From: Promethearchaeota archaeon
Lineage (GTDB): Archaea; Asgardarchaeota; Lokiarchaeia; Sigyniarchaeales; SOKP01
Reading direction: 5' to 3'
DNA: 64,000 nucleotides
NCBI GenBank assembly: GCA_019057795.1
Contig: JAHLWS010000068.1
Coordinates: 1 to 64,000, forward strand
The stretch's first letter is position 1, and each line of letters begins with the position of its first letter. This document shows, one piece after another, positions 1 to 19,929 of the stretch. A program made the position numbers and the translations under genes. The notes below the pieces were generated by a model that was given only the letters and a program-made list of their open reading frames with translations, had not been told where the DNA came from and ran no database searches.

Positions 1-185
1 GTTTCAATCTTCTTTTTGAAGCTATTTATTCTGTGACTTTTGAGATTTGTAAAATTATAGTGAAGCGTGGTCGAGTTTCAATCTTCTTTTTGAAGCTATT
101 TATTCTGTGACGTCCAAGATTTACAGATGCCAACGAAAAAATAGAAATGTTTCAATCTTCTTTTTGAAGCTATTTATTCTGTGAC
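1..185 (-). CRISPR. CRISPR array, leader-proximal end: 3 repeats of 37 bp and 2 spacers of 37 bp; probably continues left of the window
   Basis: Identical repeats at 1-37, 75-111 and 149-185. The minus strand reads GTCACAGAATAAATAGCTTCAAAAAGAAGATTGAAAC, with the canonical ATTGAAAC 3' end and a CTTC/GAAG stem. Spacers at 38-74 and 112-148. Confidence 0.97.
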
Positions 186-1208
186 TCTTATATATTATAT
201 TATAATAATGTAGGAACAAATATATATTTTTTTTCAATCTTTTAGTAAATATTTTAATCGATTAAATTAAGATTTAATTTTATTTAAAAAATAGGAATTA
301 GCAATTTTTTAGAATATTTCAGAAAAATAATACTAATTTTTAGTAGTTTAGACATGAACTTGAATCTTAACGCTTTTGAATTTTTATAATATCTTTCGAA
401 GATCAAGTAAAGTTAAGATCATTTAAAAGGAAATTCGGAGTAATTAAGATTTAATTTAGGGCTTATAATTTAATTTAATAGCAGGGATTTTACGATATGA
501 GTTGAATTGATCGATTAGAGGGAAGTTTTTATGATCTTTTAAATTCAAGACCATTTCTATTGGAAATGAATGTTAAGGCAAGTTCATTTGATAAAGAGAT
601 TTTACATTTGATAGAAGTTAATTGAACTTCATATAAATCAGAGTTTATTTAGCATATAAACTAAACTTCGGAAAAAAATAATTTTATATTCGAAATTACT
701 TTTATACTTTAAATATTATTTCATAAAAAAAGTTAGTAAAAAATTAGTAAATAATTAAGAAGAAAATTTAGATAATTAAAGATAGAGAAGAATTGGAGAA
801 ATTTTCTAATTTTTAATTATTAACACCATTGTGTATATAAAATTTATCGAAATAATTCTAAAATTTAATTTAACTCCTCGTGATTTGCAGTTTTAAGGTT
901 GCTAATTCTAATATATAAATCTAACTAAAAGAGATTTCAGATTAGTTTAGTTTTGGAAAAGTAAAGATTTAAAAACAAAAAATATATTAATATTTTTGTT
1001 AGCGACATAAATCTCAACACGAGATATACTCTTAAATTCAAAAAAGAATTGAATGTAGGAAATCAAATTTCAAAGATATTATAATAAGAAAGGAATCTAA
1101 AATATTTTAGTTCGTAAACACTGAAAGAAGAGTAAGAATTTTTAACGGGAATATGGATTCTTTTTTATCTTTTAAGAAATATAGAAGTAATTCGATGAAG
1201 GTATTTTC
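186..1208. promoter_or_regulatory. CRISPR leader plus divergent promoter region of the adaptation cluster
   Basis: About 1 kb, very AT-rich and ORF-free, lying 5' of the array in its inferred orientation and 5' of the first gene. Confidence 0.7.
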
Positions 1209-2525
1209 ATGGCTCTAAAATTTAATTCAATTGAATCTATTGCAATAAAGGAAGGATTAATAGGGGATGTATATGAAGGGACAAAAGGAGAACTTGATGA
1301 TTTTGTTATAAATGCATTATCTAATTATTATCCTATTAAAATTGTTAAGCGATTTATTTTCCGTCCGTTATTAGGAAGATGGTATCCATATATAGATGTA
1401 AAATCACCTGGTTATAGTATGCAATTATCATTATTTTTTGGAAAATTAAATATGACCTTTTCATTAGAAAAAATTTGTTCTGTATGTGGAACAGGATTAG
1501 CCTCTAAAAATTCGATTGATAATTATCTACCTTTAGGATTATGTGAAAAATGCCTTTTAAAATTAAATTACAATTACTGGTATTGTCTGAATAAGGTCAA
1601 AAATGAACACAATAGTATAGATCATTCAACTCAAACCCCTAAAGGGAATCAAATATGTGAAAATTTACTTATACCCTCGTGTGGTTTTCCTATGGTTTCG
1701 GAAAAAACGAATCCATGCTTAAAGAATCATGGTATTGGATTAGTAATAACAGATAACATTACGCTTAAAATAATAATTGGGACTTTAGATACTTTAAAAT
1801 ATAAAATAATACGCGGTGGAGGGATAATTGGAATAATTTTAGGTTATTCCGACAGAATTATGAATATTGAAATTTTAGGTGAAATTTTTAAAGATTTCTT
1901 ACAATTTATTCGTTCTTGTGCTAAAGAATTTAATGATAACACTAAATTTAGCTCAAGGAATTTTGATTTTTTCCAAGAAACAACAGTTAAAGTCGCAGTA
2001 AATCACGATATTCTCAGCTCTATCAATGAATCAAAGGAAAACACAATTAGTTGGTGGTTTTTAATAAATTTCCTAAGATATTATGGAAATTACGGAGCAA
2101 AAGTTCTTGTTAGGGATTTATTAAGGAGACCAATAATTATTTTAAAATTCATAGTTGCTCAATTATTAGAGAGTAAAATATTTAATTTTGAAATTCTGGG
2201 AGTCGTAGAAATTTTCAAATCTTTTTCTCCATTAAATCAATCTCTAAGGGATTTTTGTGAAAAAAGAATTCAGAAGAATTTTAAGATTGAGAGAATTAAT
2301 GATTTCTGGTCAACTTTTAGAAAATATTTAAGAAGAAGAGAAATATCCAATTTTTCGAATTTTTTTGACTTAGAATTCATTTCAGATTTAGAAAATATTG
2401 AGAAGGAATTAGAGATTAAAGAAGTGTTAACTTCTTTCGGTCCAAATTTAGTAATAGATTCAAATTTATCAAAAAATCCAATTATAATAAGTATAGATGA
2501 TTTGATCGGTAGAACGATATTTTAG
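1209..2525 (+). CDS. DUF2797-like Cys-rich protein, cas1-linked
   Basis: CSVCG..CEKC..C..C..C..CLKNH cluster followed by LKIIIGT..IIRGGG, and a C-terminal FGPNLVI..ISIDDLIGR, matching the DUF2797 layout. Its TAG abuts the cas1 ATG. Confidence 0.65.
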   Translation: MALKFNSIESIAIKEGLIGDVYEGTKGELDDFVINALSNYYPIKIVKRFIFRPLLGRWYPYIDVKSPGYSMQLSLFFGKLNMTFSLEKICSVCGTGLASKNSIDNYLPLGLCEKCLLKLNYNYWYCLNKVKNEHNSIDHSTQTPKGNQICENLLIPSCGFPMVSEKTNPCLKNHGIGLVITDNITLKIIIGTLDTLKYKIIRGGGIIGIILGYSDRIMNIEILGEIFKDFLQFIRSCAKEFNDNTKFSSRNFDFFQETTVKVAVNHDILSSINESKENTISWWFLINFLRYYGNYGAKVLVRDLLRRPIIILKFIVAQLLESKIFNFEILGVVEIFKSFSPLNQSLRDFCEKRIQKNFKIERINDFWSTFRKYLRRREISNFSNFFDLEFISDLENIEKELEIKEVLTSFGPNLVIDSNLSKNPIIISIDDLIGRTIF

Positions 2526-3623
2526 ATGAGGAAAGAAAGGATGGATATTATTTTAGAAACTCCAGGGACTCGTGTTGGAAAAAAATTAGAGATGTTAAAG
2601 ATTGATGTTTTAAATAAAAGCCCTATTCAAGTTCCTATTAGGGAAGTGGAGAGTATAATTATGGGAAGTGGAGTTCAGATAACATCTCAAGCACTTCAAG
2701 CATTATCTTCACATGCTGTGAATATTGTGTATACAAAATTAGGTAAACCCTATGGATTGTATACACCGTTTGCAAATGTAGGTACGGTATTTACGAGACG
2801 ACAGCAATTATTAGCTTACGAAGATTGGCGCGGAGTGTATTTAGCAACTCGATTTGTTTTTGCTACATTAGAAAATAAAAGGCGTTTACTTCTATATTTT
2901 GCTAAAAGTCGTAAAAAAACAAACCCAGCCAAATATATCCGTTTAAAAGCAGCAGCAAGACATATCGGAAAAATGATTGATGTGTTATTAAAATTTTCAA
3001 AAAACCAAGCAAAAGGTAAAAAAATTAGTGATGTAAGAATGAATTTAATGGGAATTGAAGGTCGTGCTACATCAATCTATTTTTTAGAATATGGAAACTT
3101 ATTTCCACAAGAATTTAAAGTATTAAATCGCACTCGCCGCCCTCCGAGGGATCCTGTAAACTCTTTACTGTCCTTAGGATATACTGTTCTATTGGGGCAT
3201 GTAATTACAGGAATTGCTGCAGCAGGATTGGAATTATATGGAGGATATTTACATAGCGATCGATCAGGAAAACCATCATTAGGATTGGACTTACTTGAAG
3301 AATTTAGGCAACCCGTAATAGATCGCCTTGTAGCAAGATTAATTCAGAAGAAACAATTTAAACCTAAAGATTTTATTAATAGTTTACACGGATTTCGGTT
3401 GAATGATGATAAAAGATCTTTCTATTACAAGAAATTAAGAAGTGAAATTAATGGAGGGAGCAACGAACCAGAAGAATTATTTGGACAACCTAAAGTTAAA
3501 GTTAGTAAAGATAAAGCCGTAAGGTTGAATTATAAAAGAGCAATGGTTCGACAAGCTAGGAGATTAGCAAACTATTTAATCGGGGCGACTTCTTCTTATG
3601 AACCATTTATAATGAATTGGTAA
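2526..3623 (+). CDS. cas1: CRISPR-associated endonuclease Cas1
   Basis: LMGIEG, RRPPRDPVNSLLSLGY, GYLH and DLLEEFRQPVIDR motifs; catalytic E/H/D present. Confidence 0.98.
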   Translation: MRKERMDIILETPGTRVGKKLEMLKIDVLNKSPIQVPIREVESIIMGSGVQITSQALQALSSHAVNIVYTKLGKPYGLYTPFANVGTVFTRRQQLLAYEDWRGVYLATRFVFATLENKRRLLLYFAKSRKKTNPAKYIRLKAAARHIGKMIDVLLKFSKNQAKGKKISDVRMNLMGIEGRATSIYFLEYGNLFPQEFKVLNRTRRPPRDPVNSLLSLGYTVLLGHVITGIAAAGLELYGGYLHSDRSGKPSLGLDLLEEFRQPVIDRLVARLIQKKQFKPKDFINSLHGFRLNDDKRSFYYKKLRSEINGGSNEPEELFGQPKVKVSKDKAVRLNYKRAMVRQARRLANYLIGATSSYEPFIMNW

Positions 3624-3701
3624 TCTTAAATTAATGAAAATAAAATTGGTAGCGAGAAATATTTGAATAAATTGAACAACAATTTTTAGATGTGAAATTG
3701 A

Positions 3702-3995
3702 ATGAAATTTATAATAATTTATGATATCCCAATCGAATTTGATCCAATTAGAGCAAAAATATCCAATGTATTACTCTCTTATAATTTAATTCGCTTAAAT
3801 TTTTCAGTTTTTTTCGGCAATTTAACATACAATCTTGCAGAGGAAATAGCTTTAAGGTTGAAGAAAATAATGGGAAAGGTTCCAGGAGATGTACGAATTA
3901 TTCCTATATGCAAATCTTGTCATTCAAAAGCAATTACAGTAAAATCAAAATTCGCTAATGGATATAAAATGATAGAAGATATCCTTTCTATGTAA
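3702..3995 (+). CDS. cas2: CRISPR-associated protein Cas2
   Basis: IIIYDI start, SVFFG, C-terminal IPICKSC; follows cas1. Confidence 0.95.
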   Translation: MKFIIIYDIPIEFDPIRAKISNVLLSYNLIRLNFSVFFGNLTYNLAEEIALRLKKIMGKVPGDVRIIPICKSCHSKAITVKSKFANGYKMIEDILSM

Positions 3996-4089
3996 TTTTT
4001 AGCACATTATCTTTAGAAACAATATTTAAAAGTAAGAATAAAAAATATAAAATTGTAAATAGACTAAACAATAAGAAAACCTTTAATTT

Positions 4090-4755
4090 ATGAATTCTAT
4101 AGATTCAGAAAATATAAAAGATTATATTTTGAATAAACATCAGTTTAATATTCTTAGATTAAATAATCCAATGATTAATTTATATGAAAAACCAATAATT
4201 GGGACTGAAGAAATAAGACAATTTTCATATTGTAAAAGAATTTTATTCTTTAGACATATAATCCATGCACCAATGAAACAATCATATAAAATGGAATTTG
4301 GAACTAAGAAACATAACATGCTTCAAAAGATTTCTAATAAATCGAAAGAGAATTATACTCAAAAATATTTTAACATTTATTTAACGGATCCTTTTCTCGG
4401 TTTAGTGGGACTTATTGATTATTTTGAGTTTAACGGAAAGGAAGCATATCCAGTAGAAATAAAATCTGGAAATATTCCTCTGGAAAATATTGATAATCCT
4501 CATAAACATCAAGTAACAGCCCAAGCAATATTAATTGAAAAAAATTTTGATTTTTTAGTTAAAAAAGTTCGTGTATATTATTCAAAATATAAAAAGATCG
4601 TTGATTACTCAATAGGAGTAGAAGATAAACTCAAAGTTATCGAAATAATTAGTGATATTAGAAAATTATTAGCATTAGAGCAAATACCCGACCCAACAAA
4701 AGATAGAGGGAAATGTATTGATTGTGAATGTCGAAATTATTGTTTAAGAGGATAA
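4090..4755 (+). CDS. cas4: CRISPR-associated exonuclease Cas4
   Basis: YCKR, GLID, VEIK, QVTAQA and CxxCxxxxxC Fe-S cysteines. Confidence 0.95.
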   Translation: MNSIDSENIKDYILNKHQFNILRLNNPMINLYEKPIIGTEEIRQFSYCKRILFFRHIIHAPMKQSYKMEFGTKKHNMLQKISNKSKENYTQKYFNIYLTDPFLGLVGLIDYFEFNGKEAYPVEIKSGNIPLENIDNPHKHQVTAQAILIEKNFDFLVKKVRVYYSKYKKIVDYSIGVEDKLKVIEIISDIRKLLALEQIPDPTKDRGKCIDCECRNYCLRG

Positions 4756-4778
4756 TTCTGGAAGAAGTGAAGATATAA

Positions 4779-5963
4779 ATGAAAGATATTTTTCAATCCA
4801 ATCCGCTCAAAGAATTTAGAATATTTATAAATAACTCTATTAACCAAATGAAAGAGTCTAAAGGCAAAAATGAGAAAATAGATATTAGTTATAATAATAT
4901 TTTTGGACTTAATATTTGCATCGATGGTATTAACATTGCGATAGACCATTGGAACCCTAATGCAGATATAATATTTGTATCACATGCTCATATGGATCAC
5001 ATCCCTTATATTCCAGAAAAAAACCTAAAAGATTTGGAAAATAAACAATCTCATATAAAATTTATCTGTTCTAAAATTACAAAAAAAATAGCAGAAGCTC
5101 GCACAAGAGGAAGATTTAATTTTCCTGAAAAATTATGGTTGCTTGGAAAAGATAAAAATTATCCTCAATCAATAGATTATAATGGAATTATATTAACTTC
5201 AATTGAGAATGGGCACACTTATGGCTCTTTAAGCTTATTAATTGAGGGTTCCGAAAAAATTCTTTATACAAGCGATTTCATTACAAAAGATCGCCTATTA
5301 TTTAATGGACAACAAGTTATTAAAGGGTTAATTCCAATTAATTGCGATCGATTAATCATGGAATGCACATTTGGGGCTCCAAATTTTATTTTTCCAAGTT
5401 TTCAAGAAATTCGAAAAGAATTAAATAAATATATAGAAAAGGAGATATCTAAAGGGCATCCCGTCATTATTTTAGGCTATGCCTTTGGTAAAAGCCAAAT
5501 TACTTTAAATATTCTAGACCCCTCCCATAGAATTATACTCGATAAAAATATCGTCAAATTAACGGATATTTTAGAAAATGAAGGAATTAAAATCACTAAA
5601 TGGGAACCTTACGGTAATTTTAATAAAAAACAATTAATACGCTTAAATGACTATATTCTTCTAATTCCCCCTTATTATATATTTAGAGAACCTTATAAAA
5701 GTCTAATTAATGCTGGAGCAAAAGTAGTCTATCTTTCAGGAAAAGTTTTAAATGAATCTTCCCGCAGAGAATTTCCCGCAGAAAAATATATCCCATTTAG
5801 CGACCATTGTGATTTTAATGATTTAATAGAATTTGTTGGTAGATGTAACCCCAAAAAGATATACTTAAAACACGGGAAAATCGAAGAATTTTCATATTAT
5901 CTATCAAAAATTAATAGAAATCAACAAATATTTTGTATTCGCGAGAAAATTAAATTAGTTTAA
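4779..5963 (+). CDS. MBL-fold beta-CASP nuclease
   Basis: SHAHMDH, GH, YTSD, ECTFG, YAFGKSQ, FSDH and KHG motifs. Confidence 0.9.
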   Translation: MKDIFQSNPLKEFRIFINNSINQMKESKGKNEKIDISYNNIFGLNICIDGINIAIDHWNPNADIIFVSHAHMDHIPYIPEKNLKDLENKQSHIKFICSKITKKIAEARTRGRFNFPEKLWLLGKDKNYPQSIDYNGIILTSIENGHTYGSLSLLIEGSEKILYTSDFITKDRLLFNGQQVIKGLIPINCDRLIMECTFGAPNFIFPSFQEIRKELNKYIEKEISKGHPVIILGYAFGKSQITLNILDPSHRIILDKNIVKLTDILENEGIKITKWEPYGNFNKKQLIRLNDYILLIPPYYIFREPYKSLINAGAKVVYLSGKVLNESSRREFPAEKYIPFSDHCDFNDLIEFVGRCNPKKIYLKHGKIEEFSYYLSKINRNQQIFCIREKIKLV

Positions 5964-6450: not shown

Positions 6451-6547
6451 AAAATAACTAATTTAGCTTCAATTTGAAGATTGAAATTAATGTTTTATAA
6501 AGATTGTAAAAAGAAAAAAACATTAGCTTCATAAAGAAGATTAAAGA
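6451..6547 (+). CRISPR. Degenerate two-repeat mini-array (candidate regulatory crRNA-like RNA)
   Basis: TAGCTTCAATTTGAAGATTGAAAT (6464-6487; 20/24 to the repeat 3' part) and TAGCTTCATAAAGAAGATTAAAG (6524-6546), 60 nt apart, with the CTTC/GAAG stem kept. Confidence 0.75.
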
Positions 6548-6686: not shown

Positions 6687-8207
6687 ATGATTGATAGCAT
6701 AGTTAATCTAGGAAAAGCCTTTGTAGCATTAGAAAGAAATATTGAATTTAATGATGTAAATTCATTAACTTTTAATGAAATAGTTCAATATTTTTCAAAT
6801 CCTCCTTTTAATTTGGATTATTTTATGAATGATATAGAAAATAACTATAAATTTCCAAATATCTTTTTCATTGAATTTAAAATTATTGACAATAATGTTG
6901 AATTTGTTAAAATTAGTAAGGAAATATATAAACAAGAATATGATGATAAAGTTCTAAATTATCCAGCAAGAGGAGGGGTTTATAGTACACCAACTTTAAA
7001 AATAATTCCCAAAGGAAAAAAAACAGATGACATTAAGAAAAAAATTGCAAATGGTATTGAAAATTCATTAAATCATATTAAGAAGTATTTTAATAAATTT
7101 GAAAAAGATAAAAAATACAAAGATTACACGCTTTTAACTAAGATAAGCAAAATTTTTGGAGAAAATTTTTCACAAATTAAACAGCAATTATTAGAGAAAC
7201 AATTAAAGATTTTTCCTTATGAGAATAAAATAAATACAGGTATTAATTCTCTACTTTCTATTAAAATTGATAATAAATTACCCTTTAAGATTAAAGAAAT
7301 AGTCGAAGCTTTTAATGAAAAATTAATGAGTGATTACGACTTTAAAAAAGTAAGTGAAATTAATATTTGTAGCTTATGCCATGATGATAATTCAGATAAA
7401 TTATTATCTGGAAATTTTTCGCCATTTACATTTTATACTTCTGATAAAAGAGGATATATAGCAAGTGGTTTTAATAAGAAATTTGCATATTTAAATTATC
7501 CAGTATGTAAAAAATGCGCGTTTTATGCACTTATTGGTGCTAATATATTAAAAACTCAATTCAATTTTAAACTTGGAGGAATTAAATTTTTCTTAATTCC
7601 ACGAATGTTACTTTCAGATGCTCATATGAAAAAATTCTTAATTCAATTCAGTGATGTTAGAAATAAATTATTTACTAAGAAAATTAGTTATGAACAATTT
7701 TCTCAAGGTGAAGAATTAATTCTTGATGTTTTGGCGGGTTTTAATAACTCTATGGTTTTCAATTTTTTATTTTACGAATTATCTGGTCCTGGTAATTCAG
7801 TATTCAATATATTATTACTTATTCAAGATGTATCTCCAAATCGAATTCAAACAATTAATGATGAAATAAAAAATGTTGATAGCTTTGATAGAAAACCATT
7901 ATTTCCTGGAGTAAATGGTGATAAATATCCTATGGTATTTTCATTTAAAAATTTAAGAAATTTATTTTATGATAAAAATTTAAGATATTTTGATAGAGAT
8001 AAATATTTACAAACCTTATGGATGCTTTTTACTGGAAAAAATATAATGTTTAAGAGACTATTAACATTTTTTTTTAAAAAATTAAAAAATAACTTATATT
8101 TAAATAATGCTAGTACAATCAATTTAAGCTATAATATTAAAGAATTTATTCCAATCGTTTTATTATTTGTGAAATTAAACCAATTAATAATTAAAGGTGA
8201 AAAATGA
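6687..8207 (+). CDS. cas8b: Type I-B large subunit Cas8b (Csh1/TM1802-like), lacking the C-terminal domain
   Basis: CSLC..FTFYTSDKRGY..NYPVCKKC..FFLIP..IQDVSP motifs; first gene of the Cascade operon. Confidence 0.9.
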   Translation: MIDSIVNLGKAFVALERNIEFNDVNSLTFNEIVQYFSNPPFNLDYFMNDIENNYKFPNIFFIEFKIIDNNVEFVKISKEIYKQEYDDKVLNYPARGGVYSTPTLKIIPKGKKTDDIKKKIANGIENSLNHIKKYFNKFEKDKKYKDYTLLTKISKIFGENFSQIKQQLLEKQLKIFPYENKINTGINSLLSIKIDNKLPFKIKEIVEAFNEKLMSDYDFKKVSEINICSLCHDDNSDKLLSGNFSPFTFYTSDKRGYIASGFNKKFAYLNYPVCKKCAFYALIGANILKTQFNFKLGGIKFFLIPRMLLSDAHMKKFLIQFSDVRNKLFTKKISYEQFSQGEELILDVLAGFNNSMVFNFLFYELSGPGNSVFNILLLIQDVSPNRIQTINDEIKNVDSFDRKPLFPGVNGDKYPMVFSFKNLRNLFYDKNLRYFDRDKYLQTLWMLFTGKNIMFKRLLTFFFKKLKNNLYLNNASTINLSYNIKEFIPIVLLFVKLNQLIIKGEK

Positions 8208-8638
8208 TAACCGAAATTATTACAGATGAAAATAATAAAGGAAAATATAGTGATATAATTAATAATTATTTTGAAAAGTATAAGGATTTTTTTAAAAATG
8301 TCGAATCTAGAGCAGTTTTTCTTGAAGGTGTTTTAGCGGGCCTTTTATTAGAAATTCAAAGAGTTCAAAACCCAGATAAGAAAGGTAATGAGGCTTTTTG
8401 GAGATCTTTACATAATTTACGGATAGATAATCGGATACTTCTAGAGCTTTTTCCAAAAATAATAAATAAATTAAAACAATTACAGCGTCCTTATACGAAT
8501 TTAGTGAGTGAAATATCAAAATTTTTACAAGATGCTGGTAAAAAATGGAATTTATCTAATATTGAACTTAGTTGGTATTTTACTCACGGATTAGCTTCAT
8601 ATAAATATTTTAAAATAAAAAGAGGTAAAAAAATATGA
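8204..8638 (+). CDS. cas11: Stand-alone Cas11-like small subunit (C-terminal domain of Cas8b)
   Basis: FLEGVLAGLLLEIQ..KLKQ..WNLS..ELSWYFTHG resembles the Cas8b C-terminus; GGTGA RBS and ATGA overlap. Confidence 0.8.
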   Translation: MITEIITDENNKGKYSDIINNYFEKYKDFFKNVESRAVFLEGVLAGLLLEIQRVQNPDKKGNEAFWRSLHNLRIDNRILLELFPKIINKLKQLQRPYTNLVSEISKFLQDAGKKWNLSNIELSWYFTHGLASYKYFKIKRGKKI

Positions 8639-9588
8639 GTAAAAATGAGATAATAAATAACCGTGCAGAAATAGCATTTTTTTATGATGTTAGAGATAAT
8701 AATCCTAATGGAGACCCTTTGGCAGAAAACAAACCAAGGATGGATGAAGAGACGGGAATAGGTATCGTAACTGATGTTCGACTTAAAAGAACTATTAGAG
8801 ATTATTTAAGGGATTATGAAAATCAAATAATTTTAATAGACGATTTTGAAAAAGACGATAATACTATTAAAATGGCTAGAGAAAGAGCTGAGGATTTTAT
8901 AAAAAAAAATAAAGATTCCAAACCATTAGATCTTTTAATAGAGAATTGCATTGATGTTAGATTATTTGGATGTGCTATTCCTTTGGGAGAAAAAAAGAAA
9001 TCGATCCAATTAACTGGACCTGTTCAATTTAATTATGGCAGGTCAGTTCATAAAATCGAGCCAATCCTCCTTCAAGGGACTGGAGCTTTTGCAAGTAGAC
9101 CAGGTATGAGACAACGTACATTTAGAAATGATTATATAATACATTACGGATTATATAGATTCTATGGTATAATCAATGAGAAATTAGGAGAAATAGCGAG
9201 ATTAACTGAATCAGACATTAAATTATTGATCAAAGCTCTTTGGAAAGGAACTGAAAGATTACAATCGAGATCAAAAATAGGACATTCTCCCCGATTGCTA
9301 GTTAAACTAGAATATAATGAACCCGAATTTTTTATCGGACAAATCGACAAATTAATTATCACTTCTAAAATAGATCCATCAATAGACGACTTAGCACTCC
9401 GAGATATTTCTGAATTTATTTTTGATATAGAGCCATTAGAGCAAAGAATAAAATCTAACATAGATAAAATAAAATGTGTATCTCTTAAGGCAGATCCAAG
9501 CTTAAAATTCAAGGATGATAAGAAAATAATAGATATTATGAATAAATGGAAAGATGAGAAAATTCCTATTGAGGATTTGAATTTTTAA
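8635..9588 (+). CDS. cas7: Type I-B Cas7 (Csh2)
   Basis: NPNGDP..PRMD, TDVRLKRTIRDY, DVRLFG, TGPVQF, SRSK. Confidence 0.97.
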   Translation: MSKNEIINNRAEIAFFYDVRDNNPNGDPLAENKPRMDEETGIGIVTDVRLKRTIRDYLRDYENQIILIDDFEKDDNTIKMARERAEDFIKKNKDSKPLDLLIENCIDVRLFGCAIPLGEKKKSIQLTGPVQFNYGRSVHKIEPILLQGTGAFASRPGMRQRTFRNDYIIHYGLYRFYGIINEKLGEIARLTESDIKLLIKALWKGTERLQSRSKIGHSPRLLVKLEYNEPEFFIGQIDKLIITSKIDPSIDDLALRDISEFIFDIEPLEQRIKSNIDKIKCVSLKADPSLKFKDDKKIIDIMNKWKDEKIPIEDLNF

Positions 9589-9600
9589 GGTATTTTTATA

Positions 9601-10410
9601 ATGGATGAATGTTTAACTTTTGATATTTCGGGAGATTTTGGATACTTTAAGAAGTTTTATACTACTTCATCTCCATTAACTTATGAAATCCCCCCAAAAA
9701 CAGCATTAACAGGGATAATAGGAGCCATTCTAGGATTATCTTATGAGCAACGATATGAATTATTTGAATGTAAATTTGGAATTAAAATTTTAAATGCAAT
9801 TAGAAAGATATATTTAGGAATTAATTGGTTAAATACTAAAGTAAGAAATACAAAAAATTTTCCTAATTCTAATAAAGATTTTCTAAATAGTCTACACTTA
9901 CCTCCTAAACCAAATATTGCTGTGTTTCTAGGAATGGAATGGTTAGGTCAATCACCCCATACTCAAGCAAAGTTAGAATTGCTAAAAGAACCAAAATACC
10001 GAATTTATTATCCAAATACGAACATTTTTTTTAATAAACTTCTAGAAAAAATTAAGGCTCATAAAAGCTATTTTACACCATTTTTAGGAGCAAGTGAATT
10101 TATTTGTAATTTTAAATTTAATGAACTTTTATATTTTACTAAAATTGAGAATAATTCCTCAGAAATCGAAATTAGTACAATTGTTCCAACAAATTTATTA
10201 AACCTTGAAAGCTCCAATCCAATTAATTTTATACATTCAAATTTATACAAAATAAATACTCCTTATATAATGAAAAACCCCCGAATTATACAAGATTATC
10301 AAGATATTCTATATAATCCCTTTGGGAAATCAATTAAGGTTGTTGTGAAAGAATATTATGAATTAAGAGCTAAAAATAATAAAAAAATTGAGAATGTTGT
10401 TTTCTTCTAA
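9601..10410 (+). CDS. cas5: Type I-B Cas5
   Basis: GDFGYFKKFYT..SPLTYEIPPKTALTGIIGAILG, PFLG. Confidence 0.96.
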   Translation: MDECLTFDISGDFGYFKKFYTTSSPLTYEIPPKTALTGIIGAILGLSYEQRYELFECKFGIKILNAIRKIYLGINWLNTKVRNTKNFPNSNKDFLNSLHLPPKPNIAVFLGMEWLGQSPHTQAKLELLKEPKYRIYYPNTNIFFNKLLEKIKAHKSYFTPFLGASEFICNFKFNELLYFTKIENNSSEIEISTIVPTNLLNLESSNPINFIHSNLYKINTPYIMKNPRIIQDYQDILYNPFGKSIKVVVKEYYELRAKNNKKIENVVFF

Positions 10411-13003
10411 TTTGTATAAAATAGAATCTCATCCAAATAAACCATTGAAAAAACATCTTCTAAATGTTATTAAAAGCTCTTTAAAATCTCTTTCATCTAT
10501 TTTAGAAAACAGTAATTTAAGCGATTATGAAGATTTTTTAAAAGATTATCTAATAATTATCGGATATTCCCATGATTTAGGAAAATCTACAGTTTATTTT
10601 CAAAATAAGTTATATTCTGAAAAGAGTATTAGGACAAGAGAAAGTTCTCATTCCCTTATTTCTTCTTTATTTACTTTAGTATTACTAAAAAATTATTTTG
10701 ATAATTATTCAAATCATAATAAAATAAAAGAATTTAAAGAGTTATTTATAATAGCAGGTTTTTCAATTGTTAAAAATCATCATTCTAATCTTAAGAATCT
10801 TTCTTTTCAGTTAGGAGAATTAACATCAAAATATAAAAATCAAGAATATTTAATGAAACAATTGAGCTCTTTAAAAAAAAATTATGATTACTTAGAAAAT
10901 CTTTATCATATTATAATAAAAGACAATATTAACATATTAAAATGTTTAACATTCAAAAATGTTTTTGAAATTGTTGAAGCAATAGTAGAGAAAATGGTTA
11001 ATGGTAAATCTGAAAATATATCAACAAGAACTATTTATCCAGAGATATCGTCTGGGTTTAATATTTTCAAAAGTAAAAAGAACAATGATGATTTGGAAAA
11101 TAAGATCTTTTTATATATTCTAATTAAATTAATCAATTCTATTTTTTTAGAAGCAGACAAAATGGATGCTGCTTTTGATGGAACAAAAGAATTGCAATAT
11201 GAAATATTAAAAGAATTACCGAAAAGAATTCACCAAAGAATTGATAATCTCAGAAATAATACATTAGACAAAGAAAACCACATTTTTATTGACCGAAATA
11301 AAATATTTGAAGAATCTAAAAGTAATTTGATAAAGTATCTTAAAGAAGAAAATAGTTCTAAAGTTTTGACTTTTAATGCTCCAACTGGATTTGGTAAAAC
11401 ACTTTCTGTTATTAATTGTGTATCCGAATTAATCAATTTCTTAAATAAAGGATCAAATAAAGGAGTTATTAATCAAAAGAAATTGATTTTTAACAAAATA
11501 ATATACTGTTTACCATTTTTGAGCATAACAGATCAAATTTTTAATGAATTTCAAAAAATATTAATACTTGAATCTAACAAACCCTCAGAATTAGTAATTT
11601 GTCATAATCACAGAACTGAGATGAATTATTACAATATTAATGAAGAGCAATTTGCAGGATTAGATGCTCGATTGTTAATTGAGGGATGGAATTCTAATAT
11701 TATTGTAACGACATTTCATCAATTATTTTATTCCTTGTTTTTCAATATTAATATGTTAAACATAAAATTCCATAAAATAATTAATAGTGTTGTTATTTTA
11801 GATGAGATTCAGAGCTTTCCTTTAAAATATTGGATATTAATAAGAGAAGTATTTCAGACTTTAATAAAAAACTTTAATGTTAAAATTATTCTAGTTTCAG
11901 CAACATTACCAATGATTTTTAATGAAAAATCTTCTTTTGAACTTGTGAAAGATAAAGAACAATACTTTAATAGTTTAGACCGTATAAACATACTTATTCA
12001 AAAAAGATTTCATTATGAACTGATTGACCTTTTAGATTTTTTCATTCATTATTTAAAAAATCATCCTGAAGAAAAAAAAATTTTATGTGTTTTCAATACA
12101 AGAAAGTCAGCAAGACAATTTTTTCATGCTCTTAATAGAAAAATAGAAAATCGACAAAATTTTTATCTTTTTTTTCTTTCAAGTGATGTGCTTATTAAGG
12201 ATAGGCAAGAAAGGATAAAAATTATAAAAGAATATCTTTCAGAGCGAAATTTAAAAAAGAAATTAATTTTAATTAGTACTCAAGTTATTGAAGCAGGGAT
12301 AGATTTAGATTTTAATGTAGTTTTTCGAGATTTTGCCCCATTAGATTCTTTAATTCAAGTAGCAGGCAGGTGCAATCGTAATAATAGTTTAAAAAAGAAA
12401 GGAGAATTTTATATATTTAGATTATTTGACATTGAAAATGAAAATTATTTTTCAGATTATATTTACGACCTTACTCTTTTAGAAATAACTAAGAAGATAA
12501 TATTCAAATTTAATAATAACTCCGAATTGAATTCCAAATTTCTTAAACTATCAGAAAATGCGTGGTTTGAAATGTCTAAAGAATATTTTCAAAAGATTCA
12601 AAAAGAAAAATACTCTACTCCAGATTATTCTTTGAGAATTCTTAATGAAATATATAAGTTTAATTTTTTTGACATTTCAAAAAAGTTTAAATTAATCGAA
12701 GATTTTTCAAACTTTCAATTCTATTTAAATATTAATGAAGAATCAAATAATATTTGGAAAAAATTCCTTGATTTAAAAAATGAGAGAGATTTAACAAAGC
12801 GGTATTCAAAATACATAAATCTAAAATCAGATCTAGAATCTTATATTCTTAATTATAATGCTAATAGGACAGAAACTAAAAATATTACAGATTTTATGCT
12901 TAAATATAAACTTAATACTTCTAAAAGAAATTTTATTTATATTCCAAGAGAATTAATAGAATTAATATATGATATATGTGGTTTGAATTTTGAACGGTTT
13001 TAA
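10388..13003 (+). CDS. cas3: Cas3 HD nuclease-helicase
   Basis: HDLGK, HH, ADKMDA; APTGFGKT, DEIQ, SAT, QVAGRCNR. Confidence 0.97.
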   Translation: MRMLFSSNLYKIESHPNKPLKKHLLNVIKSSLKSLSSILENSNLSDYEDFLKDYLIIIGYSHDLGKSTVYFQNKLYSEKSIRTRESSHSLISSLFTLVLLKNYFDNYSNHNKIKEFKELFIIAGFSIVKNHHSNLKNLSFQLGELTSKYKNQEYLMKQLSSLKKNYDYLENLYHIIIKDNINILKCLTFKNVFEIVEAIVEKMVNGKSENISTRTIYPEISSGFNIFKSKKNNDDLENKIFLYILIKLINSIFLEADKMDAAFDGTKELQYEILKELPKRIHQRIDNLRNNTLDKENHIFIDRNKIFEESKSNLIKYLKEENSSKVLTFNAPTGFGKTLSVINCVSELINFLNKGSNKGVINQKKLIFNKIIYCLPFLSITDQIFNEFQKILILESNKPSELVICHNHRTEMNYYNINEEQFAGLDARLLIEGWNSNIIVTTFHQLFYSLFFNINMLNIKFHKIINSVVILDEIQSFPLKYWILIREVFQTLIKNFNVKIILVSATLPMIFNEKSSFELVKDKEQYFNSLDRINILIQKRFHYELIDLLDFFIHYLKNHPEEKKILCVFNTRKSARQFFHALNRKIENRQNFYLFFLSSDVLIKDRQERIKIIKEYLSERNLKKKLILISTQVIEAGIDLDFNVVFRDFAPLDSLIQVAGRCNRNNSLKKKGEFYIFRLFDIENENYFSDYIYDLTLLEITKKIIFKFNNNSELNSKFLKLSENAWFEMSKEYFQKIQKEKYSTPDYSLRILNEIYKFNFFDISKKFKLIEDFSNFQFYLNINEESNNIWKKFLDLKNERDLTKRYSKYINLKSDLESYILNYNANRTETKNITDFMLKYKLNTSKRNFIYIPRELIELIYDICGLNFERF

Positions 13004-13022
13004 AAAATTAATTAAGTAAATT

Positions 13023-13886
13023 ATGCTTAAATTAACATTTGAGTTATATCCGGAAGACGGAAGAATCAAGCCTTATGGTCATCCTTATGGTTATATTTTC
13101 CGTGGTGTTATAATGAAGTGGTTAAGTGATATTAAGCCAGAATTAGTTCATAAGCTTCACGAATTCGAGGAAATCCGGCCATATTCCATTAATTATATCA
13201 TCCATAAAAAGGTTCCTAAGCTTGACTTTATCATCGTTTCTTACGATGATGAGATACAAGATGCATTATTTCAAGATTTAATCACTTCTGAAAAAAATAT
13301 AATACATATTGGTCAAAAGGATTACTATATTTCCCAAGTGAGATTTGAGCGTATTAATATTCGAGATCTAATCGATCAATCAAATCCTGTAAAGTCATTT
13401 AACCTTAATTTTATACGCCCCATATATTTTAACACGAGTAAGGGGGATTATCCAGTGAGATTCCCTATTCCTATCCTTTTATTCGGTAATTTGGCGAAAT
13501 TATGGAACGAAACTGCGAAAAATACCTCTGAAATTGACCGAGAAAATTTTTTAAATTGGGTTAATGTTCATGTGTATGTTAGTGGTTATAAAATGAAGTC
13601 AGTTCGCACCGAAATAGGCAAGCCAAAACCTGTGGTAGGAGGTTTAGGAAATGTAAGTTATAGAGTTGTGAAAATAAACAAACATTATTATAAACATATG
13701 TTAAAAGAAATGAATCGTGAATATGATTACAAATTCGTTAACGATGATTATTCGGGTAATTGTCGCTGGTTAGAGATTTTGTGTAAGCTTGGTGAATATA
13801 CGAATGTTGGTGCTAATCGGACGGCGGGAATGGGAGTAATTCATTATTATCCAGGAAATTATTTAACGGAAAAAAACCTGTTATAG
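13023..13886 (+). CDS. cas6: Cas6 endoribonuclease
   Basis: KLHE..RPYS, FP.P..LF..L..W and the G-rich loop GEYTNVGANRTAGMG. Confidence 0.93.
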   Translation: MLKLTFELYPEDGRIKPYGHPYGYIFRGVIMKWLSDIKPELVHKLHEFEEIRPYSINYIIHKKVPKLDFIIVSYDDEIQDALFQDLITSEKNIIHIGQKDYYISQVRFERINIRDLIDQSNPVKSFNLNFIRPIYFNTSKGDYPVRFPIPILLFGNLAKLWNETAKNTSEIDRENFLNWVNVHVYVSGYKMKSVRTEIGKPKPVVGGLGNVSYRVVKINKHYYKHMLKEMNREYDYKFVNDDYSGNCRWLEILCKLGEYTNVGANRTAGMGVIHYYPGNYLTEKNLL

Positions 13887-18235: not shown

Positions 18236-18652
18236 TTGAGATATTGTCATTAATGTGGTGGCGAATTTAAAATAGAGTTTGTTTCTACTTATCCAATTAA
18301 AAAATATCAAAAAATTTTTGATAAATATTACGACGATGATGGAAACGAAGAATATGCGGATCTTATTAATAAAATGGAAAAAGATGGAATTAAAGGAGTA
18401 TCAATAAGGTATCACGAAGAGAATCATTGTTGGTACATATGTAAAGTAATCTCTCACGAAGATTGGGTTAAAAGATATAAAAAATTCACGTCTCGTAAAG
18501 AACTGAACGAAGAGAATAAGAGAAAGTGTAGAGAAAAACTTAAAAAATAATTCTCAAGAATTTTTGTTTGTTCAAAATGTGGATTTTCTACTTCAGATCA
18601 ATACTGGAAAGATGAAGAGGGAATAAGAACGACAAGTTATCGTAGTTTTTAA
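18236..18652 (+). pseudogene. Zinc-ribbon protein pseudogene with two in-frame TAA stops
   Basis: TTG start after AAGAGG; reads MRYCH*CGGEF...KLKK*FSRIFVCSKCGF...; stops at 18251 and 18548. Confidence 0.65.
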
Positions 18653-18756
18653 GAAGGCAGAATAAAGGATTCTTTCTCGTACTATTTTATTAAATACAAA
18701 TGCTAATGGTCCTATAAAAAGAAATATAAAAAGATCTTAAAGTATTACTCTCGCTT

Positions 18757-19929
18757 TTAATGCTTTCTTAAGAGTCGCTTTTGAACTACGTAATGCGTTC
18801 TTGTTGGGATCCCGTGCGGAAAAATAGTCTTTATCGCTCGGTCGTTGTTAGCCCAAACGGTAGTTCCTTCGTAGTAGTTAAATCCGTAGGCGTGGGACGA
18901 CAAAAACATTCCTATATTGGAAAGCGCAGAAAATATACCCCTTCCTGCGTATTCTTTTTTTATCATAGCCGTATCTACGTTTAAGTGGGTTAGAGTCTCT
19001 CCGTTCCACAGCTGAAACAAGTTTGGTTGGCACATAATAACGCCTACCAGCTCGTTAGTGTTCCGGTCGAAACCGAACACGGCCATAGGAACGATCTTCT
19101 TAAAGTCGCAAGATTCCCACGTTTCTCGGAACCCGGGATCATCGGCGTAATCTTGGGGAAATTCCTCGCTAACTAATTTAAGTACTTTGCTCGCTTGAGT
19201 GTACCCGTCCATCATTTCTTCGAATCGTGCTCTACCGCCCGGCGCATCGGCAAGTACGGCGTATAGAGATTGAGACGCTAAGCCCATTATTTGTTCCTTT
19301 AAATCCCTTATTTCGTCGAGGGGCAAAAACCTGACCGCTATGTTTTCGTCTAAATCTTTGCCTTTAGCCCACTTTTTTAAGAAAATGTCAAGGCACGAAT
19401 ACTTCGAGTCTTTTTTGTAACCTAATTCTTGTAAGTACTCCAAGATTTTTGATTCGGGTTTGCCGAACGCTAAACCACTCATCATGGGAGCTTCGAACCC
19501 TTCGGTCTGAAACCCGATCCCACCGATAAATTTGGGGTAATTAATTGGACCACGGAGCTTTTTCTTTTTATTTTCGCGAACAAATCTTTCGCACTCGCTC
19601 ATTAACGCTTTACAAGTCTCTAAATTCTGAGCGCGAAGCCAGGCGAAAGTAGGACACTTCATCCCGTAGCTTTTGTACTCGTCGTCGATCTGGCAAGAAA
19701 CAAAGCCCGTTGTTCTTTTGTTTTGACTTGCTACGAAAAATTTTATTTTGTTTTTAGGATTTAAAAATTTAGTTTCGAAATAACTAACTATTTCCGAGAC
19801 GATTTTAGGTTTTAACCTCTCGTCCGGTACCCACAACATTTCTAACATCGCAGACTCTATTTGCGACAAGTTCCTTACTTCAATTACTCCCGAGCTTAAT
19901 TTTTCCGTTTTTGTAGATACTAATTCCAT
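18757..19929 (-). CDS. Tandem-GNAT acyltransferase, YghO / bacterial ceramide synthase-like
   Basis: FFVA..GFVS..FAWL..LRGPIN..EGFEAP..LGYKK and C-terminal GRGI..VWANN. Confidence 0.7.
   Translation of the reverse strand: MELVSTKTEKLSSGVIEVRNLSQIESAMLEMLWVPDERLKPKIVSEIVSYFETKFLNPKNKIKFFVASQNKRTTGFVSCQIDDEYKSYGMKCPTFAWLRAQNLETCKALMSECERFVRENKKKKLRGPINYPKFIGGIGFQTEGFEAPMMSGLAFGKPESKILEYLQELGYKKDSKYSCLDIFLKKWAKGKDLDENIAVRFLPLDEIRDLKEQIMGLASQSLYAVLADAPGGRARFEEMMDGYTQASKVLKLVSEEFPQDYADDPGFRETWESCDFKKIVPMAVFGFDRNTNELVGVIMCQPNLFQLWNGETLTHLNVDTAMIKKEYAGRGIFSALSNIGMFLSSHAYGFNYYEGTTVWANNDRAIKTIFPHGIPTRTHYVVQKRLLRKH

What the first reader, a model, noticed from the sequence alone, without database searches (positions are those of the whole stretch)
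1209..5963. Extended CRISPR adaptation module: DUF2797-like, cas1, cas2, cas4, beta-CASP nuclease
Seen: five co-directional genes between the leader and the Cascade operon. The first abuts cas1 (TAG|ATG) and the last starts 23 nt after cas4. Known: adaptation needs prespacer trimming and leader-specific integration, usually supplied by Cas4, DnaQ-type nucleases or host factors; neither flanking family is a standard type I-B component as far as I know. Inference: a self-contained acquisition machine with a Zn-binding DNA/leader-binding subunit and a 5'-3' prespacer-generating nuclease. This is the best candidate for an undescribed system here.
Basis: partly seen in the sequence, partly recalled or inferred. 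Interest (0 to 1): 0.88.

Follow-up and report, generated by a model that had tools for sequence, protein, structure and literature searches.

The report
Five-gene CRISPR spacer-acquisition cassette in Lokiarchaea
Next to a CRISPR array, this Asgard archaeon carries the usual spacer-acquisition genes (cas1, cas2, cas4) flanked by two extra genes, a zinc-finger protein distantly related to DUF2797 and an intact beta-CASP nuclease, and these five genes travel together in every related locus found; one of the two extras is already in a published catalogue, but neither has been tested.

Summary
Five co-directional genes lie at 1209-5963, between the leader of a 37-nt-repeat array and a type I-B effector operon.

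Both flanking genes are truly cas-linked:
- In 400 genomes of the phylum, ORF1 and the close beta-CASP occur in the same 11 genomes. In the 135 genomes of the family, close Cas1 is confined to those same 11.
- ORF1-cas1-cas2-cas4-betaCASP is the order in all 12 of their loci, two of them cut inside ORF1 by a contig end.
- The neighbouring effector modules differ: I-B TM1802, I-B Cst1 and I-D.
- In another family of the same order, distant versions of both genes flank cas1-cas2-cas4 in a different order.

ORF1 is a remote DUF2797 homologue (hhalign 97%, fold TM 0.72/0.50). It has eight invariant Cys, and its GIY-YIG-like core lacks the tyrosine and arginine that DUF2797 conserves. The beta-CASP keeps every catalytic motif.

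ORF1's family is already listed as "UAS-44, Acquisition (DUF2797 large zinc finger protein)" in Altae-Tran et al. 2023. I found no mention of the beta-CASP partner.

The mechanism is inferred: either prespacer 5'-3' processing or crRNA processing. I rate this a new variant of a known kind, of moderate interest.

The parts
1..185 (-). CRISPR array: three copies of a 37-nt repeat, cut by the contig start. The crRNA sense is the minus strand, because the reverse complement of the repeat ends in ATTGAAAC.
186..1208 (.). Leader and divergent promoter region of about 1 kb between the array and ORF1. The first ~60 nt next to the repeat form a conserved AT-rich TATA-like block. The array, a 0.85-1.55 kb gap and then ORF1 recur in five other loci.
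1209..2525 (+). ORF1, 438 aa. A Cys-rich protein with eight invariant Cys (a zinc ribbon plus a second site). It is a remote DUF2797 homologue with a degenerate GIY-YIG-like core and about 200 extra residues. It belongs to the family catalogued as UAS-44.
2526..3623 (+). cas1
3702..3995 (+). cas2
4090..4755 (+). cas4
4779..5963 (+). Small beta-CASP metallo-beta-lactamase nuclease, 394 aa, with all catalytic motifs present. It belongs to a cas-linked clade separated by a long branch from housekeeping small beta-CASP proteins.
6687..13886 (+). Type I-B effector operon (cas8b, cas11-like, cas7, cas5, cas3, cas6). This is context, not part of the conserved cassette, except that cas6 stays 55-69% identical across the seven related loci where it was found.

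Best explanation
Positions 1209-5963 are an extended CRISPR adaptation operon, found so far only in Promethearchaeota (Lokiarchaeia-type Asgard archaea). Its core is the Cas1-Cas2 integrase plus Cas4. Two lineage-specific accessory genes are inherited with that core as one unit, while the effector module next to it is swapped.

Shown:
- The five genes are linked, and they co-occur exclusively with one another in the genomes searched.
- The nuclease is intact.
- ORF1 is a DUF2797 relative with two Cys4-type sites, and it lacks the tyrosine and arginine that DUF2797 conserves in its GIY-YIG-like core.

Inferred:
- The beta-CASP is a metal-dependent 5'-3' exo/endonuclease. It resects or cuts invader DNA, or flapped intermediates, to give 3'-overhang prespacer precursors. 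Cas4 and Cas1-Cas2 then measure, trim and integrate these.
- ORF1 is a non-catalytic zinc-dependent nucleic-acid-binding or adaptor subunit. It either captures DNA ends or branches for the complex, or directs integration to the leader-repeat junction.

The confidence given is for the linkage claim, that both genes are functional members of the adaptation module. The specific DNA-processing mechanism deserves about 0.35.
For: - Co-occurrence: ORF1, the close beta-CASP (43% identity or more) and close Cas1 (63% or more) occur in exactly the same 11 genomes. That holds for all three within the 135 genomes of the family, and for ORF1 and the beta-CASP across 400 genomes of the phylum.
- Gene order: tblastn finds ORF1-cas1-cas2-cas4-betaCASP in that order in 10 of 11 fetched loci. 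In the eleventh, only the last 59 residues of ORF1 lie before the contig end. Another metagenome contig shows the same order.
- Operon spacing: cas4-to-betaCASP gaps are 6-57 nt in 13 loci. ORF1-to-cas1 gaps are 0-128 nt in 10 of 11 loci.
- Effector swapping: the cassette sits next to I-B TM1802, I-B Cst1 and I-D Cas10d/Csc modules.
- Rearranged order: in family f2, locus L062 reads betaCASP-like, ORF1-like, cas1, cas2, cas4, cas8b. The beta-CASP matches at 27% identity (E 7e-19) and the ORF1-like protein at hhalign 97.3%.
- A decayed remnant still keeps cas4 and the beta-CASP adjacent.
- Distant beta-CASP homologues (37% identity or less) lie beside proteasome-alpha and M48 peptidase genes, or MFS and LysR genes, not cas genes.
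- The cas-linked clade is split off by a branch with SH-aLRT 100 and length about 1.3.
- Motifs 1-4 and A-C are conserved (D56, H69xH71xD73H74, H146, D166, E195, H343, H365). The model has pLDDT 92.6 and matches beta-CASP nucleases at Foldseek E down to 2e-17.
- No fused or stand-alone ORF1 form appears among the 51 hits in 1.84 billion representatives.
Against: - No expression, interaction or activity data exist, and no RNA run was listed.
- The DNA-versus-RNA preference of the nuclease is open. Pfam matches RMMBL ('RNA specificity domain', E 1.4e-6) better than DRMBL (E 0.007). Motif C is His, the residue of the RNA-acting members by my recollection of Callebaut 2002. The top fold matches are CPSF-73, aCPSF1, RNase J and Cas14, ahead of Apollo and Artemis.
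- cas6 and the repeat also stay conserved with the cassette where cas6 is present. Co-inheritance therefore does not by itself separate an adaptation role from a crRNA-processing role.
- ORF1 pI ranges from 5.0 to 9.2, so there is no uniform basic charge.
- ORF1 keeps K197, Y198, R216, N219 and E221 (13 of 15 sequences), so a remodelled active site is not excluded.
- The distribution is narrow (one order of MAGs), so part of the conservation is shared descent.
Confidence: 0.85

Rival explanations
1. The beta-CASP is an RNase that matures CRISPR transcripts, for example by 3'-handle trimming after Cas6 cleavage or by processing the leader or pre-crRNA. It is not a prespacer nuclease. It sits in the adaptation operon only because it co-evolves with the repeat and Cas6.
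For: - It matches Pfam RMMBL, has His at motif C, and its best PDB sequence and fold matches are Ysh1/CPSF-73, aCPSF1, TTHA0252/RNase J and the type VII Cas14 RNase.
- Cas6 (55-69% identity) and the repeat (5-8 mismatches in 37) travel with the cassette while the effectors change.
- A host RNase J takes part in crRNA maturation in Synechocystis (PMC12464536, title and abstract only).
Against: - The gene lies 6-57 nt after cas4 in all 13 loci, at the far end from cas6 in the loci that carry cas6.
- In L062 it moved next to ORF1 and cas1, not next to cas6.
- A remnant keeps the cas4-betaCASP pair without cas6.
- The nearest NCBIfam model is the ligase-associated DNA-damage exonuclease TIGR04122 (E 4.8e-32).
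Confidence: 0.25
2. ORF1 is a transcription or array-binding regulator, a functional analogue of Csa3 or Cbp1. It controls the divergent array and cas1 promoters in the 1-kb leader region and is not a subunit of the integrase complex.
For: - It is the first gene after the leader, and the array, a ~1 kb gap and then ORF1 recur in six loci.
- It has a zinc ribbon and no conserved canonical nuclease residues.
- One locus (L039) adds a separate Csa3-like gene, so regulators do occur in these loci.
Against: - The stop and start codons abut cas1, and the short gaps in other loci suggest coupled, stoichiometric expression.
- No HTH, wHTH or other regulator domain was found.
- A 430-570 aa protein with a conserved GIY-YIG-like core is large for a repressor.
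- L039 carries both ORF1 and a Csa3-like protein.
Confidence: 0.15
3. The two flanking genes are passengers. They entered one ancestral locus and persist through shared descent in a narrow lineage, with no role in CRISPR.
For: - All known members are Promethearchaeota MAGs: 7 of 7 loci in a scan of 185,579 species genomes.
- Only about 30 full-length clusters at 50% identity exist.
Against: - ORF1 pairs have diverged to 27-44% identity and the beta-CASP to 41-73%, yet the order, the reading frames and all catalytic motifs are kept.
- Linkage survives three effector swaps and one gene-order rearrangement.
- No copy was found outside a cas locus in 400 genomes.
Confidence: 0.05

Closest known systems
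UAS-44 'Acquisition (DUF2797 large zinc finger protein)' in Altae-Tran et al. 2023, Science (PMC10910872, supplement)
   Same: It is the same protein family. The published representative is GCA_016840085.1 JAEOTA010000034 18467_19766 (-). My locus L033/L066 is that contig, 62,406 bp. Its ORF1 homologue lies at 18471-19766 (-), with 43% identity over residues 1-438 and E 3e-103. Both analyses class it as acquisition-linked.
   Different: The publication gives only a label and a count (8 / 9.2) in a supplementary figure. The held text gives no function. It does not mention the beta-CASP partner, the effector swapping, the rearranged L062 variant or the loss of GIY-YIG-type residues.
Canonical Cas1-Cas2-Cas4 adaptation modules (types I-A/B/C/D/G, II-B, V)
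   Same: Cas1, Cas2 and Cas4 are all present above family cut-offs, lie next to a leader and array, and recombine as a module with different effectors.
   Different: Two extra conserved genes bracket the trio. Cas4 is retained, so the beta-CASP adds to the usual trimming nuclease rather than replacing it.
Cas14, the beta-CASP effector RNase of type VII CRISPR-Cas
   Same: It has the same fold and catalytic motifs and is CRISPR-associated (Foldseek E 6e-15 to 9j9e).
   Different: The NCBIfam Cas14 model scores 45 bits against a cut-off of 800. This protein has 394 aa and no Cas10-like C-terminal domain. [quoted passage not shown]
Ligase-associated DNA-damage-response exonuclease (TIGR04122) and the archaeal 'putative mRNA 3-end processing factor' small beta-CASP proteins
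   Same: This is the closest sequence family (E 4.8e-32), of similar size, with about 30% identity to Nitrososphaeria and Asgard housekeeping copies.
   Different: The score of 111 bits is far below the cut-off of 325. The cas-linked clade is separated by a long branch, carries an N-terminal helix and an insertion at about residues 80-125, and has a different genomic context.
DUF2797 (PF10977), reported to hide a GIY-YIG-like fold (bioRxiv 10.64898/2026.10.10.758204)
   Same: It is a remote homologue: hhalign 97% with E 1e-10 over 145 columns, and atlas fold TM 0.50/0.72 over 255 residues. Both have a zinc ribbon followed by a beta-beta-alpha-beta-alpha core. My own VIA search gave weak hits to the GIY-YIG nucleases Slx1 and HIGLE (Z 3.9-4.5).
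   Different: There is no Pfam hit at any threshold. ORF1 is about 140-270 residues longer. DUF2797's conserved Tyr (VYL) is an invariant Gly here and its conserved Arg aligns to a variable column. Ordinary Asgard DUF2797 genes are near-universal in some families but absent from this one, 0 of 40 genomes sampled.
Accessory trimming nucleases of adaptation: DnaQ/DEDDh fused to Cas2 or host-encoded; RecJ
   Same: The concept is the same: an extra exonuclease serving Cas1-Cas2 prespacer processing.
   Different: Those enzymes have a different fold, and the DnaQ enzymes have the opposite polarity (3'-5'). They are used in systems that lack Cas4, whereas here Cas4 is present. This comparison rests on my own knowledge and on abstracts seen.

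Membership tests
CRISPR adaptation module (Cas1-Cas2-Cas4) | Cas1, Cas2 and Cas4 family matches above curated cut-offs | tested here: met
   PF01867 scores 236 bits (cut-off 22), PF09827 scores 55 (cut-off 24) and TIGR00372 scores 111 (cut-off 65).
CRISPR adaptation module (Cas1-Cas2-Cas4) | Next to a CRISPR array, on the leader side | tested here: met
   The array lies at 1-185, and the repeat orientation puts the leader at 186 onward. The same layout occurs in L033, L035, L037, L038 and L042.
beta-CASP nucleases (metallo-beta-lactamase superfamily) | MBL motifs 1-4 (D, HxHxDH, H, D) and beta-CASP motifs A (D/E), B (H) and C (H/V) | tested here: met
   D56, H69/H71/D73/H74, H146, D166, E195, H343 and H365 are present. 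Most are invariant or at least 90% conserved in A3 and A4.
beta-CASP nucleases (metallo-beta-lactamase superfamily) | Two-domain MBL plus beta-CASP fold | tested here: met
   The model has pLDDT 92.6. Foldseek gives E 2e-17 to 2xr1, 8e-16 to 6i1d and 1.6e-12 to Apollo 5aho (TM by target 0.71).
Ligase-associated DNA damage response exonuclease (TIGR04122 equivalog) | Score above the curated cut-off of 325 bits | tested here: not met
   The score is 111 bits. No ligase or Lhr neighbour was seen in the loci examined.
Cas14 (type VII effector) | NF045584 above 800 bits, a C-terminal Cas10-like domain, and an operon with cas7-cas5 | tested here: not met
   The score is 45 bits, the protein has only 394 aa, and its neighbours are cas4 and a 723-nt gap.
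DUF2797 (PF10977) | Pfam gathering score of 25 bits | tested here: not met
   None of the 15 family members gave a hit, even at E up to 5.
DUF2797 (PF10977) | Remote homology by profile and by fold | tested here: met
   The A1 profile reaches Pfam-confirmed DUF2797 proteins at E 7e-7 to 1.7e-4. hhalign gives 97% with E 1e-10. The only row of the atlas fold search is a DUF2797 cluster, TM 0.50/0.72.
GIY-YIG nucleases (active enzyme) | Conserved Tyr (GIY), Arg and Glu/Asn catalytic residues | tested here: not met
   The position of DUF2797 Y112 is an invariant Gly (G177). The position of R134 is variable (K/H/N/Q/R/M/Y). N219 is invariant and E221 is present in 13 of 15 sequences. The fold resemblance itself is weak, Z 3.9-4.5.
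UAS-44 of Altae-Tran et al. 2023 | Homology to the published representative gene | tested here: met
   The contig is JAEOTA010000034.1 and the coordinates match. Identity is 43% over the full length, E 3e-103.
Type I-B CRISPR-Cas (context) | Cas8b with cas7, cas5, cas3 and cas6 | tested here: met
   PF09484/TIGR02556, PF05107, PF09704, TIGR01587 plus TIGR01596, and PF10040 all match.

The most novel reading that the evidence does not exclude
Together with Cas1-Cas2-Cas4, the beta-CASP nuclease and the DUF2797-derived zinc protein form a self-contained prespacer-generating machine. It would carry out 5'-3' resection or flap cutting together with structure-specific DNA capture. This would give these archaea, which have no RecBCD/AddAB, their own route from invader DNA to integration-ready fragments. 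It would also be the first beta-CASP enzyme and the first GIY-YIG-derived protein with a role in CRISPR adaptation.
Probability: 0.3. Interest if true: 0.75.

Novelty: new variant of a known kind. Interest (0 to 1): 0.6.

Why it matters
How prespacers are produced and trimmed on the 5' side is poorly understood, and so is how archaeal integrases find the leader without IHF-like host factors. This cassette hard-wires an intact 5'-3'-type nuclease and a zinc-finger, nuclease-derived protein to cas1-cas2-cas4. That makes both questions directly testable with five small genes. A compact, self-sufficient acquisition module could also interest people who build molecular recorders. If the nuclease instead trims crRNA, it would be a second, independent recruitment of a beta-CASP RNase by CRISPR systems, after Cas14.

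Tried and rejected
- Pfam, NCBIfam and PADLOC gave nothing significant for ORF1.
- A PDB sequence search with the ORF1 profile found only a small zinc-finger match at E 0.038.
- Foldseek of the ORF1 model against the PDB gave no match with E below 0.2.
- VIA-align wide gave no match with Z of 5 or more. The best were BAH/SH3-like barrels at Z 4.9 and GIY-YIG nucleases at Z 3.9-4.5. These are leads only.
- The ESM Atlas feature search gave no usable hit.
- No listed sequencing run is on record as RNA, so co-transcription could not be examined, and read laying was not used.
- I looked for a fused ORF1-Cas1 or other fused form. None of the 51 profile hits is longer than 543 aa.
- I considered that the beta-CASP might be the ligase-associated repair exonuclease or Cas14. 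Both were rejected on score and context.
- Literature searches for a beta-CASP or metallo-beta-lactamase gene in adaptation modules found no description. The Shmakov 2018 CRISPR-linked-genes paper is not held, so that source remains unchecked.
- ORF1 net charge gave no uniform signal as a test of nucleic-acid binding.

Full report
**What is in the window**

The window is the first 64 kb of contig C68 of a 4.95-Mb, 87-contig genome.

- Positions 1-185 hold three copies of a 37-nt repeat with 74-nt spacing, cut by the contig start. The reverse complement of the repeat ends in ATTGAAAC. The crRNA sense is therefore the minus strand, and the leader lies to the right of the array, facing ORF1.
- After about 1 kb with no ORF of 60 aa or more come five + strand genes: ORF1 1209-2525 (438 aa), cas1 2526-3623, cas2 3702-3995, cas4 4090-4755, and a 394-aa metallo-beta-lactamase/beta-CASP gene 4779-5963.
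TAG|ATG sits at 2523-2528, and a 23-nt purine-rich gap separates cas4 from the nuclease gene.
- A 723-nt gap follows, and then a type I-B operon: cas8b of the TM1802 family, a separate cas11-like ORF, cas7, cas5, cas3 and cas6.

**Are the two flanking genes really cas-linked?**

- In 400 genomes of the phylum, close homologues of the nuclease (43-73% identity) occur in 10 other genomes, all in the window's own family. None occur in the 41 other genomes of its genus.
- The ORF1 profile finds exactly the same genomes.
- Within the 135 genomes of the family, Cas1 at 63% identity or more is again confined to the same 11 genomes.
- I fetched 11 loci from these genomes. tblastn with the window's proteins gives ORF1-cas1-cas2-cas4-nuclease in that order in ten. 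In the eleventh, only the last 59 residues of ORF1 remain before the contig end, and the rest sits on another small contig.
- A 112-kb metagenome contig shows the same five genes.
- cas4-to-nuclease gaps are 6-57 nt in 13 loci. ORF1-to-cas1 gaps are 0-128 nt in 10 of 11.
- The array, a 0.85-1.55 kb gap and then ORF1 recur in five other loci. Their repeats differ from the window's at 5-8 of 37 positions, and about 60 nt of leader next to the repeat are conserved and TATA-like.

**The cassette behaves as a module**

- The neighbouring effector genes differ between loci. The window, L033 and L035 have I-B with Cas8b/TM1802. L037 has I-B with Cas8b1/Cst1, Cst2 and Cas5t. L039 has I-D with Cas10d/Csc3, Csc2, Csc1 and Cas3', plus a Csa3-like gene.
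- In a genome of another family of the same order (L062), the order is different: beta-CASP-like, ORF1-like, cas1, cas2, cas4, cas8b, cas11-like. That nuclease is 27% identical (E 7e-19) and the ORF1-like protein matches at hhalign 97.3%.
- Linkage that survives both effector swapping and a gene-order change is the classical signature of functional coupling.
- A decayed remnant, with truncated cas4 and a truncated nuclease between toxin-antitoxin pairs, still keeps the two genes adjacent.
- More distant nuclease homologues (37% identity or less) are near-universal in other Asgard families. They sit beside proteasome-alpha and M48 peptidase genes, or MFS and LysR genes, with no cas genes nearby.
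- In a quick maximum-likelihood tree, the 33 close sequences are split from those homologues by a branch with SH-aLRT 100 and total length about 1.3. The group was chosen by similarity to the query, so the informative point is the long stem, not the monophyly.

**The nuclease**

- All MBL and beta-CASP motifs are present and conserved: D56, H69xH71xD73H74, H146, D166, E195, S341-D-H343 and H365.
- The AlphaFold model is confident (pLDDT 92.6). It matches archaeal and eukaryotic CPSF-73-type enzymes (E 2e-17 to 1e-15), TTHA0252/RNase J, the type VII Cas14, and then Apollo and Artemis (E about 1e-12, TM by target 0.71 for Apollo).
- The best NCBIfam model is the ligase-associated DNA-damage exonuclease, TIGR04122, but at 111 bits against a cut-off of 325. 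Cas14 scores 45 bits against 800. It belongs to neither family.
- Compared with the housekeeping clade, it has an N-terminal helix (residues 9-29) and an insertion at about 80-125. These are candidate docking surfaces.
- Whether it acts on DNA or RNA cannot be settled from sequence. The RMMBL match and the His at motif C point to the RNA-acting members. The nearest curated family and the gene's position point to DNA.

**ORF1**

- Pfam, NCBIfam and PADLOC give nothing.
- The family is small. There are 7 clusters in the word-indexed search and 51 hits in an exhaustive profile search of 1.84 billion representatives. About 30 of those hits are full-length, none is fused, and none exceeds 543 aa.
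- A pattern scan of 185,579 species genomes finds 7 loci, all Promethearchaeota MAGs.
- Fifteen sequences share eight invariant cysteines. C90, C93, C112 and C115 form a zinc ribbon. C126, C150, C158 and C170 form a second site.
- The model (pLDDT 75, pTM 0.77) has three elements: a small barrel built from N- and C-terminal strands, the ribbon, and a beta-beta-alpha-beta-alpha core followed by long helices.
- Foldseek finds nothing in the PDB. VIA-align gives only weak rows, three of which are GIY-YIG nucleases covering residues 172-336: Slx1 at Z 4.3 and 3.9, and HIGLE at Z 4.5.
- The ESM-Atlas fold search returns a single row, a DUF2797 cluster (TM 0.50 by query, 0.72 by target, 255 residues, rmsd 3.4 Å).
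- The weakest significant profile hits are Pfam-confirmed DUF2797 proteins.
- hhalign of the ORF1 alignment against an alignment of Asgard DUF2797 proteins gives 97% probability and E 1e-10 over 145 columns.

A 2026 preprint reports a cryptic GIY-YIG-like fold inside DUF2797, which agrees with my weak structural hits. In the profile alignment, the tyrosine that DUF2797 conserves (VYL) is an invariant glycine in ORF1 (G177). The conserved arginine aligns to a variable column. N219 is invariant and E221 is present in 13 of 15 sequences. A canonical GIY-YIG active site is therefore unlikely, though a remodelled one is not excluded. Net charge varies (pI 5.0-9.2), so there is no generic signal of DNA binding.

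**Prior art**

The supplement of Altae-Tran et al. [quoted passage not shown] My locus L033/L066 is that very contig, and its ORF1 homologue lies at 18471-19766 on the minus strand.

The association of this family with acquisition genes is thus already catalogued, as a label without text. A second entry, UAS-13 (a shorter DUF2797), is also classed as acquisition-linked, so the DUF2797-adaptation connection may be wider.

I found no statement about a beta-CASP gene in adaptation modules. This covers that paper's held text, the 2025 CRISPR classification (which discusses beta-CASP only as Cas14 of type VII, a type that lacks adaptation modules), the Cas4 phylogenomics paper, and the full-text searches. 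The 2018 survey of CRISPR-linked genes is not held.

**How it most likely works**

Shown: there is a five-gene unit with tight operon-like spacing. The unit is inherited together, found only in cas loci, and carries an intact nuclease and a Cys-rich DUF2797 derivative.

Inferred, at about 0.35:
- The nuclease supplies 5'-3' exo- or endonucleolytic processing of invader DNA or of flapped intermediates.
- That processing yields the 3'-overhang precursors that Cas4 trims on the PAM side and that Cas1-Cas2 integrates.
- ORF1, translated in step with Cas1, is a zinc-dependent, non-catalytic binder. It captures DNA ends or branches, or positions the integrase at the leader-repeat junction.

The main rival, at about 0.25, is that the nuclease is an RNase that trims crRNA. 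cas6 and the repeat also travel with the cassette, so co-inheritance alone cannot exclude this. A regulator role for ORF1 (about 0.15) and pure hitch-hiking (about 0.05) are less likely. No RNA run was listed, so co-transcription remains untested.

**Verdict**

This is a real, conserved and well-delimited extension of the CRISPR adaptation module in Lokiarchaeia-type Asgard archaea. One of its two accessory families is already in a published catalogue. The pairing with a beta-CASP nuclease and the anatomy of both proteins are, as far as I could check, undescribed. I rate it a new variant of a known kind, with interest 0.6.

Noticed in passing
window 6464-6546 (+): Two degenerate repeat-like units in crRNA-sense orientation, TAGCTTCAATTTGAAGATTGAAAT and TAGCTTCATAAAGAAGATTAAAG, are separated by 36 nt. 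They lie about 140 nt upstream of cas8b and look like a cr-like mini-array of the regulatory kind described by Shmakov et al. 2023. I only read the sequence.
   Followed up: partly
window 6687-8638 (+): cas8b is split. ORF 6687-8207 covers TM1802 profile positions 22-468 of 602. An overlapping ORF at 8204-8638 covers positions 484-600, so it is a separately encoded Cas11-like small subunit. The same split is seen in L033, L035 and L062.
   Followed up: partly
L063 9504-10948 and L064 824-2268: This is a decayed remnant of the cassette. A truncated cas4 (160 aa) and a truncated beta-CASP (315 aa) remain, without cas1 or cas2. They sit between PIN/VapB and HepT/nucleotidyltransferase toxin-antitoxin pairs.
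   Followed up: no
L043 3978-5104; G273:C17:52125-53264: Two copies of the cas-linked beta-CASP look broken. One is split into two ORFs (173 and 195 aa) and the other has one in-frame TAG.
   Followed up: no
G000:C29:15644-16216: The same genome holds a second, distant Cas1-like gene, 27% identical to the window's Cas1. It could belong to a casposon or to another CRISPR type.
   Followed up: no
L036 635-9457 and L065 11558-20239: A third kind of effector module lies next to the cassette. It has two unannotated proteins of about 470-530 aa, two Cas7-like genes, a Cas5-like gene and a large Cas3. I did not assign a subtype.
   Followed up: no
L046 5886-7598, L047 9400-11119, L049 9551-13632: In family f13, the housekeeping small beta-CASP gene lies next to an 810-848-aa M48-type peptidase gene. 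In L046 and L047 the proteasome alpha-subunit gene is on its other side. This conserved neighbourhood is unrelated to CRISPR.
   Followed up: partly
Altae-Tran 2023 supplement, entry UAS-13: A shorter, ordinary-length DUF2797 gene (GCA_018238085.1 JABCUA010000354 227_1190) is also catalogued as acquisition-linked. The link between DUF2797 and adaptation genes may therefore have arisen more than once.
   Followed up: no
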